Source: the human T2T-CHM13v2.0 reference genome, Homo sapiens
DNA length: 64,000 bases
Direction: 5' to 3' (one strand)
Assembly: GCF_009914755.1 (NCBI RefSeq)
Contig: NC_060933.1
A program made the position numbers and the translations under genes. Positions 4,273-35,597 of this stretch are shown piece after piece. Each line of letters begins with the position of its first letter. Position 1 is the stretch's first letter. The notes under the pieces are model-generated. The model saw only the letters and a program-made list of their open reading frames with translations. It searched no databases and had not been told where the DNA came from.

Positions 4273-4729
4273 TTTACCAGATATTTAATTTGCAAATATA
4301 TTCCCACAATCTGAAGTTTTCCCATTTTCTTAATAACGTATTTTGAAATGCAAAAGTTTTACATTTTAATGAAGCCAATTCATCAATGAATTTCTTTTAT
4401 GGCTTGTGCCACTGGTGTCACATCTAAGAGGTCTTTGCCTAACCCAAGGTCACAAAGATATGCTTGATACATTTGGTAGTTTTAGCTCTTACATTTAGGT
4501 GTATGGTGCACTCTGAGTTACTTTTTGTGTCTAGTGTAAAATAGAGTCTTAGATAAATTTTTGGCATGTAGATATCCACTTTTCCCAGCATCATTTCTGG
4601 AAAAAAACTATGATTTCCTCCACTGAATTGCCTTGGTATCTTGGTCAAAAATCAAAGGACCACATACATAAGGATTTATGACTGAATTCTCAATTCAGTT
4701 CCAGTGCCTATCCTTACAGCAATTATCAC

Positions 4730-11901: not shown

Positions 11902-12210
11902 ACCAGGTGGGTTGGCGCACACCTGTAATCTCAGCACTTTGGGAGGCCAAGGCGGGCAGATCACTTGAGGTCAGGAGTTCGAGACCAGCCTGACCAACAC
12001 GGTGAAACCCTGTCTCTACTAAAAATACAAAAAATTAGCTGGGAAAGGTGGCAGGCACCTATAACCCCAGCTACTCGGGAGGCTGAGGCAGGAGAATCGC
12101 TTGAACCTTGCCTGAACCCAGGAGGCAGAGGTTGCAGTGAGCCAAGATCATGCCACTGCACTCCAGCCTGAGCAACAAAGTGAGATTCCATCTCGAAAAA
12201 AAAAAAAAAA
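11902..12210 (+). mobile_element. AluS, inserted in a probable old MLT1-type LTR remnant (~11650-12280)
   Basis: Full Alu with A-tail. Flanks (gcagccattttc, gtgtttctgttccttgc) resemble MLT1; that part is low confidence. Confidence 0.9.
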
Positions 12211-19984: not shown

Positions 19985-20190
19985 AAGGACATGGACTTTG
20001 GGATCACACAGGGTTCATCTCTGCCACTTACCAGCTGTGTGACCTTGGCCAAGTGTTAAACTGTCAGTTTCCTCATCTGTAAAATGGGGCAGAACAAGAG
20101 TTGAGAATAACCTTGTAGAGCTGCCAGGAAGAGTAAATGAGATAAATGTTTTAAAGTCATTAACATACAGTAAATGCTCATCAAATATTA
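19985..20190 (+). mobile_element. MIR SINE (antisense to NR6A1; hosts the 45-nt cassette exon)
   Basis: ctctgccacttaccagctgtgtgaccttggccaagt..cagtttcctcatctgtaaaatgggg matches the MIR core closely. Confidence 0.92.
20032..20076 (-). CDS. NR6A1: Putative MIR-derived 45-nt cassette exon of NR6A1, orthologous to mouse Nr6a1 exon 3
   Basis: ctcttgttctgccccattttacag|ATGAGGAAACTGACAGTTTAACACTTGGCCAAGGTCACACAGCTG|gtaagt. Spliced after exon 2 it reads NEETDSLTLGQGHTA versus the recalled mouse NGETDSLTLGQGHIP. 45 nt, phase 1-1, no stop. Inclusion in human mRNA is not shown by the sequence. Confidence 0.7.
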
Positions 20191-20909
20191 ACAAAAAGAA
20201 ATTAGAAACCTTTTGTCTTGTATTTCCACAAAAGAGAAACATGCAGGACTAGAGCAGCTAACTGCTGGGCAATTCATGTATATTATCTCATTATTTTTTA
20301 AAACAACATTTAACAAGAATTACTACTGTTTCAAAGATGAACAAACTGAGCTTCACACGTTGCCTATGCTACTCAGCAAGAAAGCAGGAAGGCCAGGATG
20401 CTAACTTTCACTCATGTTTTTTCCACTGTACCATGCACCCATGCATTTCATTAGGGTCGCTTTCAGCAGGTATCCCTGCAACTGTCAGGATAGCCCAATT
20501 TATATAAGAAGCTCCCTCCATTATCAATAGTGCTGGCTCAAGCCTCAAGCCTGACACTGAAAAGGAGGCAAATTCTGATGGCTTTACTAGTGAATGGAAG
20601 CAGGGTTGCAAGTAGAAGCCTGAAAATGCTGTAGAAGTCTTTTACTTTATTCTCAGACTTCAAAGATGGTTCCTGCTACTTGAGGACTCTGATTCCCCCT
20701 TCCTTAGAACAATTTCAAGATAACAGAATTCTGAATGTAAAATCTGTGCTTTAAGTGGAAGCTAGAACCTATTGGCTCAATTTGGCAGAATAGCCATGGA
20801 AATCTGGCAGCTAAAATGAGAGAGAATTTTTTAAATGCATGTCTTTTTTCTTAATAATGTGATGTTCTTAAAAACAGAAAACTCAGAGATAATGAAAGAT
20901 ACCCTGTAA

Positions 20910-35555: not shown

Positions 35556-35597
35556 TAGTGCCTGGGTCAAGCTCTGCCAATTCATCCTGACAGAAAC
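35556..35597 (-). CDS. NR6A1: NR6A1 (germ cell nuclear factor, GCNF) coding exon 2, 42 nt, phase 1-1
   Basis: Minus strand reads ttttcctattgttttctctttag|GTTTCTGTCAGGATGAATTGGCAGAGCTTGACCCAGGCACTA|gtaagt and translates (G)FCQDELAELDPGT(I). This matches the recalled NR6A1 N-terminus PPPPRNGFCQDELAELDPGTISV. Canonical AG/GT sites and a long polypyrimidine tract. Confidence 0.97.

What the first reader, a model, noticed from the sequence alone, without database searches (positions are those of the whole stretch)
20032..20076. Hidden MIR-derived in-frame exon: intact human counterpart of mouse Nr6a1 exon 3
Seen: an antisense MIR supplies acceptor (ttttacag) and donor (CTG|gtaagt) around 45 nt, phase 1-1 like exon 2, open, encoding NEETDSLTLGQGHTA. 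Against my recalled MIR consensus (55 nt between these sites, CTA|gtaagt), a net 10-nt loss restores frame, the donor -1 base is improved to G and the pyrimidine tract is longer. Recalled: mouse GCNF has NGETDSLTLGQGHIP at this spot (12/15 identical) while the 480-aa human reference does not. Inference: an exonisation predating the primate-rodent split, still splice-competent, giving a ~495-aa human isoform with a longer N-terminal domain. The mouse/human exon difference may be in older literature; MIR origin and human use are what need testing.
Basis: partly seen in the sequence, partly recalled or inferred. Interest (0 to 1): 0.88.

Follow-up and report, generated by a model that had tools for sequence, protein, structure and literature searches.

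The report
Conserved MIR-derived NR6A1 coding exon
A 45-base piece of an ancient repeat inside a long NR6A1 intron is the intact human copy of a small coding exon used in rodents and modelled in orangutan, a known kind of event whose use in human tissue remains untested.

Summary
Window 20032-20076 (minus strand) is 45 nt, flanked by ttttacag| and |gtaagt. It is open in phase 1-1 after NR6A1 exon 2 and encodes NEETDSLTLGQGHTA. It lies in an antisense MIR. The family consensus built here has 55 nt between the same two sites and an in-frame TAA; this copy has a net 10-nt loss.

The same 15 residues sit at the same junction in annotated NR6A1 proteins:
- 15/15 identical in orangutan, two squirrels and a sea lion;
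- 11-13/15 in rat and lemming.

Human versus sea lion, the intron codons just downstream match at only 8 of the first 16. This points to selection on the coding sequence since before the split of primates/rodents from carnivores.

Human use could not be tested: no RNA data were available, and only 1 of 6 RefSeq transcripts was shown. So "hidden" is unresolved.

This is an ordinary member of a known kind, a conserved exonised MIR like those in DMWD and MYT1L (Sela 2007). It has some annotation value, because NR6A1 is a developmental gene.

The parts
20032..20076 (-). 45-nt phase 1-1 cassette exon encoding (N)EETDSLTLGQGHTA. It is the human orthologue of the extra N-terminal exon of rodent Nr6a1.
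   Evidence: Sequence. In-frame join with exon 2. Identical peptide in P0012, P0017, P0029 and P0123, and 11-13/15 in P0027 and P0009.
20077..20108 (-). 3' splice site region: pyrimidine-rich tract ending in ttttacag.
   Evidence: 23 of 30 pyrimidines at -3..-32, against a mean of 18.9 and a maximum of 22 in 30 MIR copies. No AG lies between -34 and the acceptor (read's 40-nt upstream string).
20026..20031 (-). 5' splice site gtaagt after exonic CTG. This is the MIR family's major exonisation donor position.
   Evidence: Sela 2007, passages: the MIR has one major 5'ss, CTA/gtaagt. Genomic counts of the A and G forms.
19986..20192 (+). Whole MIR SINE copy. Its own sense strand is the window's + strand, so it is antisense to NR6A1.
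   Evidence: Local alignment to the empirical consensus covers consensus positions 8-227. A B-box-like GGTTCAAATCC lies on the reverse complement of the consensus, and GGTTCATCTC on the window + strand at 20012. The B-box consensus itself is recalled.
35556..35597 (-). NR6A1 exon 2 (42 nt, phase 1-1), the upstream splice partner.
   Evidence: and the hub annotation given with the finding.

Best explanation
An old MIR SINE, inserted antisense in the long intron between NR6A1 exon 2 and the DNA-binding-domain exon, became a coding cassette exon.

How the exon arose:
- The repeat's antisense strand supplied a ready acceptor (pyrimidine run plus TTTTACAG) and a near-perfect donor (CTR|GTAAGT).
- Two small deletions (8 + 2 nt) shortened the stretch between them from 55 to 45 nt. 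They removed the in-frame TAA of the repeat, making a phase 1-1 open exon.

Effect on the protein: inclusion adds 15 residues to the N-terminal A/B region, ending 12 residues before the first zinc-finger cysteine.

Shown here:
- The exon is intact in human.
- Its peptide is identical in orangutan, two squirrels and a sea lion, and 11-13/15 identical in rat and lemming.
- It is spliced in annotated or predicted proteins of those species.

Inferred:
- It has been under protein-level purifying selection since before the split of primates/rodents from carnivores.
- In human it is an alternative, probably minor or tissue-limited, exon, skipped in the reference transcript. In muroid rodents it is included in the standard protein.
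For: - Sequence anatomy, phase and frame.
- MIR membership, antisense orientation and the 10-nt net deletion.
- Consensus-like copies read NEETEAQRG* in this phase (L046, L061), so the deletions removed a stop.
- 8 of the 137 cluster-representative proteins held carry the insert at the same junction: P0012 Pongo abelii X14, P0017 Sciurus X6, P0029 Ictidomys X6 and P0123 Eumetopias (15/15); P0009 Lemmus (13/15); P0015 and P0122, unnamed (12/15); P0027 rat X1 (11/15).
- Internal control, human versus sea lion. The exon matches at 15 of 15 codons. The read-through intron codons match at 8 of 24 ungapped (Fisher p = 2.5e-5), or at 8 of the first 16, before a likely indel (p = 0.0024).
- Precedent: conserved MIR exons in DMWD and MYT1L, and the MIR's strong major donor (Sela 2007, passages).
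Against: - No human transcript evidence was available. The selected human RefSeq transcript skips the exon (hub table).
- Most mammalian representatives lack it (129 of 137 held). These include the 480-aa P0022 (301 members), carnivores (P0019, P0020), bats, sheep and marsupials. Clustering at 90% identity hides isoforms, so this is weak evidence of absence.
- The sea-lion model does not use the donor. It reads on into the intron with N (AAY) where human has K (AAG), so donor position +5 differs there.
- Most supporting proteins are computer-predicted isoforms.
- No DNA of other mammals could be fetched. Codon-level constraint therefore cannot be told apart from nucleotide-level constraint, such as an overlapping regulatory element.
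Confidence: 0.8

Rival explanations
1. Rodent-used exon, human relic. The sequence is orthologous and intact, but human cells never include it. Its conservation reflects something other than coding, for example a conserved non-coding element within a developmental gene's intron.
For: - The human selected transcript skips it (hub table).
- Most representative mammalian proteins lack it (129 of 137).
- The sea-lion donor seems altered while the peptide is unchanged. That could mean the constraint is not on splicing.
Against: - The orangutan model P0012 splices exon 2 to this exon, and this exon onward.
- Both human splice sites are strong and the frame is open.
- The flank immediately 3' of the exon is much less conserved between human and sea lion than the exon.
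- No RefSeq enhancer interval listed by the hub overlaps 20032-20076.
Confidence: 0.17
2. Chance pseudo-exon. It is an ordinary MIR copy that happens to keep both splice-like motifs and an open frame, with no relation to the rodent exon.
For: MIR copies often keep both motifs: 22 of 59 copies examined. Of those 22, 3 are also a multiple of 3 and open in this phase.
Against: - The peptide is 15/15 identical at the same exon 2 / DNA-binding-domain junction in four named species, and 11-13/15 in rodents.
- Other open MIR copies read differently, for example NEETEVKSGAQIYSA in L024.
Confidence: 0.01
3. Poison (NMD-switch) exon. Inclusion would serve to destroy the mRNA rather than to change the protein.
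For: Many deep-intronic repeat-derived exons act this way (general knowledge).
Against: The exon is 45 nt, a multiple of 3. It has no stop in the used frame and keeps the downstream frame with either acceptor of the next exon.
Confidence: 0.02

Closest known systems
Rodent Nr6a1 (GCNF) extra N-terminal exon, as in rat isoform X1 (P0027) and the unnamed records P0015 and P0122
   Same: Same place (between ...DPGT and VSV[P/S]DDRAEQ), same length (15 residues) and same phase. Peptide identity is 11-13/15.
   Different: Human has E2, T14 and A15 where the muroids have G2, I14 (T in lemming) and P15. The exon is in the standard rodent proteins but is skipped in the selected human transcript.
Conserved exonised MIRs in DMWD and MYT1L (Sela et al. 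2007, PMC2394776, passages read)
   Same: Exons made from a MIR element and conserved at protein level across mammals, with exaptation dated before the human/mouse/dog/cow split. For NR6A1, the exon uses the donor position that the paper names as the family's major one, and the element is antisense.
   Different: Different gene. For NR6A1, inclusion appears to differ between species, whereas MYT1L is constitutive in both human and mouse. That paper found only 6 orthologous human-mouse TE exons, 4 of them MIR. Whether NR6A1 is among them could not be seen, because the supplements were closed.
FGB intron 1 antisense-MIR cryptic exon (Kralovicova et al. 2015, PMC4615370, passages read)
   Same: An antisense MIR copy in which a small deletion relative to the consensus helped exon recognition.
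   Different: The FGB exon is a disease-activated pseudo-exon enclosed in a very stable hairpin. The NR6A1 exon region folds no better than shuffled sequence (z = 0.19) and is a conserved coding exon.
Orangutan NR6A1 isoform X14 (P0012)
   Same: Identical 15-residue exon after exon 2, in a great ape.
   Different: It carries a further 30-residue Alu-like exon before the DNA-binding domain and lacks part of the ligand-binding domain. It is a predicted model.

Membership tests
Exonised antisense MIR (whole exon inside the element) | The sequence belongs to the MIR SINE family. | tested here: met
   At least 40 genomic matches at 72-97% identity. The acceptor 24-mer has 615 copies against 0 for the control. 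Alignment to the empirical consensus runs over about 207 nt.
Exonised antisense MIR (whole exon inside the element) | The element lies antisense to the host gene. | tested here: met
   A B-box-like GGTTCAAATCC lies on the strand opposite to NR6A1 (the B-box consensus is recalled). Sela 2007 reports 67% of human MIR exons as antisense.
Exonised antisense MIR (whole exon inside the element) | Both splice sites come from the element, with the donor at the family's major CTA/gtaagt position. | tested here: met
   Sela 2007 passage.
Exonised antisense MIR (whole exon inside the element) | The exon is present in mature human mRNA. | not testable with these tools
   No RNA-seq, EST or full transcript table was available. 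Only 1 of 6 RefSeq transcripts is shown by the hub.
Exonised antisense MIR (whole exon inside the element) | The exon is present in mRNA or protein models of other mammals. | tested here: met
   P0012, P0017, P0029, P0027, P0009 and P0123. Most of these are predicted models.
Orthologue of rodent Nr6a1 exon 3 | Same intron, same order between exon 2 and the DNA-binding-domain exon. | tested here: met
   Window 20032-20076 lies between exon 2 (35556-35597) and the zf-C4 exon at C9:136752566-136752808.
Orthologue of rodent Nr6a1 exon 3 | Same length and phase, and a matching peptide. | tested here: met
   45 nt, phase 1-1. Identity is 11/15 to rat, 13/15 to lemming, and 12/15 to P0015 and P0122.
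Orthologue of rodent Nr6a1 exon 3 | Syntenic DNA alignment of the mouse exon to this place. | not testable with these tools
   No rodent genome is held.
Poison / NMD-switch exon | Inclusion introduces a stop codon or a frameshift. | tested here: not met
   45 nt, no stop in frame, and the downstream frame is kept.

The most novel reading that the evidence does not exclude
Human NR6A1 makes a so far unlisted 495-residue isoform in particular cell types, such as germ cells or early embryonic progenitors. The 15 MIR-derived residues next to the DNA-binding domain change how the receptor works. Species then differ by a switch from regulated inclusion (primates) to default inclusion (muroid rodents). 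Mouse studies of this receptor would therefore have used a protein form that is not the main human one.
Probability: 0.2. Interest if true: 0.55.

Novelty: new member of a known kind. Interest (0 to 1): 0.33.

Why it matters
NR6A1 (GCNF) is a regulator of early development; Nr6a1's roles in axial elongation, vertebral number and body plan are reviewed in PMC10909835 (passages).

- If the exon is used in human, variants in it, or in its splice sites, would today be filed as deep-intronic.
- The standard mouse and human proteins would differ by an exon that is alternative rather than absent in human.
- It is also a clean example of how two small deletions turned a repeat into a coding exon, and of that exon being kept unchanged in species as far apart as human, squirrel and sea lion.

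Tried and rejected
- **Older literature.** Three searches for papers citing them found none, and the Borgmeyer reference entries shown for six papers did not include them. Krull 2007, Lin 2009 and Chung 2001 are not held.
- **Print searches for a MIR origin of this exon.** 'NR6A1' + 'exonization' gave 0 papers. 'NR6A1' + 'interspersed repeat' + 'exon' gave 2 papers, each with one mention of NR6A1 and judged unrelated from title and abstract only. 'GCNF' + '15 amino acid' gave 1 unrelated paper. One broad search was uninformative. These cover main texts only.
- **RNA hairpin like the FGB MIR exon.** Not supported: minimum free energy -18.6 kcal/mol, z = 0.19, and 100 of 200 shuffles fold as well.
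- **Open frame as evidence by itself.** Rejected: 3 of 22 MIR copies with both site motifs are also open and a multiple of 3.
- **First set of MIR copies.** It was chosen by likeness to the query, so it was biased towards G at donor -1. It was replaced by a set chosen by the acceptor 24-mer and by genome-wide counts.
- **Orangutan's extra Alu-like exon in human.** The best minus-strand match in the window is only 20/30 (11924-12013).
- **Solved structures.** The only NR6A1 structure (5krb) starts 9 residues after the insert, so it says nothing about it.

Full report
**What is there.**
On the minus strand, which the hub table gives as the NR6A1 strand, the window reads ...ctcttgttctgccccattttacag|ATGAGGAAACTGACAGTTTAACACTTGGCCAAGGTCACACAGCTG|gtaagtggcag. 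The exon is 20076 down to 20032, 45 nt. Exon 2 (35597-35556, 42 nt) ends ...GGC ACT A|gtaagt. Joining the two in a script gives FCQDELAELDPGTNEETDSLTLGQGHTA with one base (G) left over. The other two frames of the 45 nt carry stops.

The next exon was found by searching the held human assembly with Pfam zf-C4. The whole domain (model positions 2-70) lies in one open stretch at C9:136752570-136752776 on the minus strand, inside the NR6A1 span. Its sequence shows two acceptors 12 nt apart, gatcag|TTTCTGTTTCAG|ATGATCGG. With the upstream acceptor, inclusion reads ...GHTA V SVSDDRAEQRTC. With the downstream acceptor the frame is also kept.

**Repeat origin.**
- The stretch matched at least 40 other places in the genome at 72-97% identity, mostly over window 20016-20091.
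- The acceptor 24-mer TTTTACAGATGAGGAAACTGAGGC occurs 615 times; its reversed control occurs 0 times.
- I took the first 30 of these copies. They were chosen without regard to anything downstream of the 24-mer. Their majority consensus has 55 nt between TTTTACAG| and |GTAAGT.
- The NR6A1 copy aligns to this consensus over about 207 nt (window 19986-20192), with two deletions inside the exon, 8 and 2 nt.
- Consensus-like copies read NEETEAQRG* in the NR6A1 phase (L046, L061). The deletions therefore removed a stop and made the length a multiple of 3.
- The reverse complement of the consensus carries GGTTCAAATCC, which resembles the polymerase III B box (consensus recalled). The SINE's own sense strand is thus the window's + strand, and the element is antisense to NR6A1.
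- Sela et al. 2007 (PMC2394776, passages read) state that the MIR has one major 5' splice site, CTA/gtaagt, that 67% of human MIR exons are antisense, and that MIR exons have the strongest donors among TE exons.
- Genome-wide, the 22-mer with A at donor -1 has 72 copies and the one with G has 38, this locus included. G departs from the commoner form but is not unusual.
- The pyrimidine content at -3..-32 is 23/30. The 30 copies average 18.9 and none reaches 23. At -3..-22 it is 16/20, which 12 of 30 copies also reach.

**Is it more than chance?**
The open frame alone is not. Of 59 MIR copies examined, 22 keep acceptor-like and donor-like motifs, and 3 of those are also a multiple of 3 and open in this phase. 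The decisive evidence is orthology.

**Orthology.**
The protein database holds vertebrate proteins. I searched it with the human DNA-binding-domain exon and then with the N-terminal region of a squirrel isoform, for near and for shorter lengths. This gave 137 cluster representatives. Eight carry the insert at exactly this junction:

| Protein | Species or source | Insert | Identity to human |
|---|---|---|---|
| P0012 | Pongo abelii isoform X14 | NEETDSLTLGQGHTA | 15/15 |
| P0017 | Sciurus carolinensis X6 | NEETDSLTLGQGHTA | 15/15 |
| P0029 | Ictidomys tridecemlineatus X6 | NEETDSLTLGQGHTA | 15/15 |
| P0123 | Eumetopias jubatus | NEETDSLTLGQGHTA | 15/15 |
| P0009 | Lemmus lemmus | NGETDSLTLGQGHTP | 13/15 |
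| P0015, P0122 | unnamed | NGETDSLTLGQGHIP | 12/15 |
| P0027 | Rattus norvegicus X1 | NGETDGLTLGQGHIP | 11/15 |

The other 129 representatives lack the insert. They include the 480-residue P0022 (301 members), carnivores, bats, sheep and marsupials. Clusters are built at 90% identity, so a 15-residue isoform difference can be hidden inside a cluster. Absence among representatives is weak evidence.

**Selection.**
No DNA of other mammals could be fetched, but the sea-lion model gives an internal control. That model does not use the donor. It reads on into the intron for 24 codons.
- Against the human intron in the same frame, 8 of 24 codons match ungapped (Fisher p = 2.5e-5 against 15 of 15 in the exon).
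- Counting only the first 16 codons, before a likely indel, 8 of 16 match (p = 0.0024).

The exon is therefore far better kept than the adjoining part of the same repeat. This supports purifying selection since before primates and rodents split from carnivores. It is not a codon-level test, and an overlapping non-coding constraint is not excluded.

The same read-through shows N (AAY) where human has K (AAG). Donor position +5 therefore differs in the sea lion, which may be why that model runs on. It is also a caution against assuming the exon is spliced as a cassette everywhere.

**How it most likely works.**
The antisense MIR gave a ready acceptor and donor, and the deletions opened the frame. 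Inclusion inserts 15 polar or acidic residues into the N-terminal A/B region, ending 12 residues before the first zinc-finger cysteine (positions 48-62 of P0015, first cysteine at 74). The only solved NR6A1 structure (5krb) starts 9 residues after the insert. The exon region has no unusual RNA fold (z = 0.19), unlike the FGB MIR exon of Kralovicova et al. 2015 (PMC4615370, passages).

- Shown: the anatomy, the repeat origin, orthology, and better conservation than the flank.
- Inferred: regulated or minor inclusion in human, default inclusion in muroids, and any functional effect of the insert.

**What is open.**
- Human use was not tested. There were no RNA data, and the hub shows only 1 of 6 RefSeq transcripts.
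- The older gene-structure papers (recalled) and the two MIR-exon surveys (Krull 2007, Lin 2009) are not held.
- Main-text searches for NR6A1 with exonisation or interspersed repeats gave nothing relevant.

**Verdict.**
This is a further member of a known kind, a conserved exonised MIR as in DMWD and MYT1L. It has modest interest, mainly for human annotation and for mouse-human comparison of this receptor.

Noticed in passing
L009 498-510 (G000:C9, about 136752797-136752809, minus strand; outside the window): The DNA-binding-domain exon has two acceptors 12 nt apart (gatcag|TTTCTGTTTCAG|ATG). This would give forms with or without four residues (ISVS versus N) at the junction with exon 2.
   Followed up: partly
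G000:C9:136752570-136752776 (outside the window): The whole zf-C4 domain of NR6A1 (model positions 2-70) lies in one exon. Many other nuclear receptor genes in the same search match in two pieces (for example 2-25 and 24-70).
   Followed up: no
P0012 (Pongo abelii X14); window 11924-12013 minus strand: The orangutan model has a further 30-residue Alu-like exon between the MIR exon and the DNA-binding domain. The best minus-strand match in this window is only 20/30, so the human counterpart, if any, lies elsewhere in the intron.
   Followed up: partly
P0123 (Eumetopias jubatus): The sea-lion model reads through the donor. The residue after G is N (AAY) where human has K (AAG), so donor position +5 is not conserved there although the 15 exon residues are identical.
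   Followed up: partly
P0032, P0024, P0010, P0018: Other models place different sequence at the same junction. A bat form has SKVLQNSEAHQTSMWT (representative of a 400-member cluster). An anteater form has a long insertion. Tree shrew and camel forms start with METWE directly before the DNA-binding domain, which suggests an alternative first exon.
   Followed up: no
window 4444-4459 (+): A second MIR-core-like match (CCAAGGTCACAAAGAT, 2 mismatches) lies in the window.
   Followed up: no
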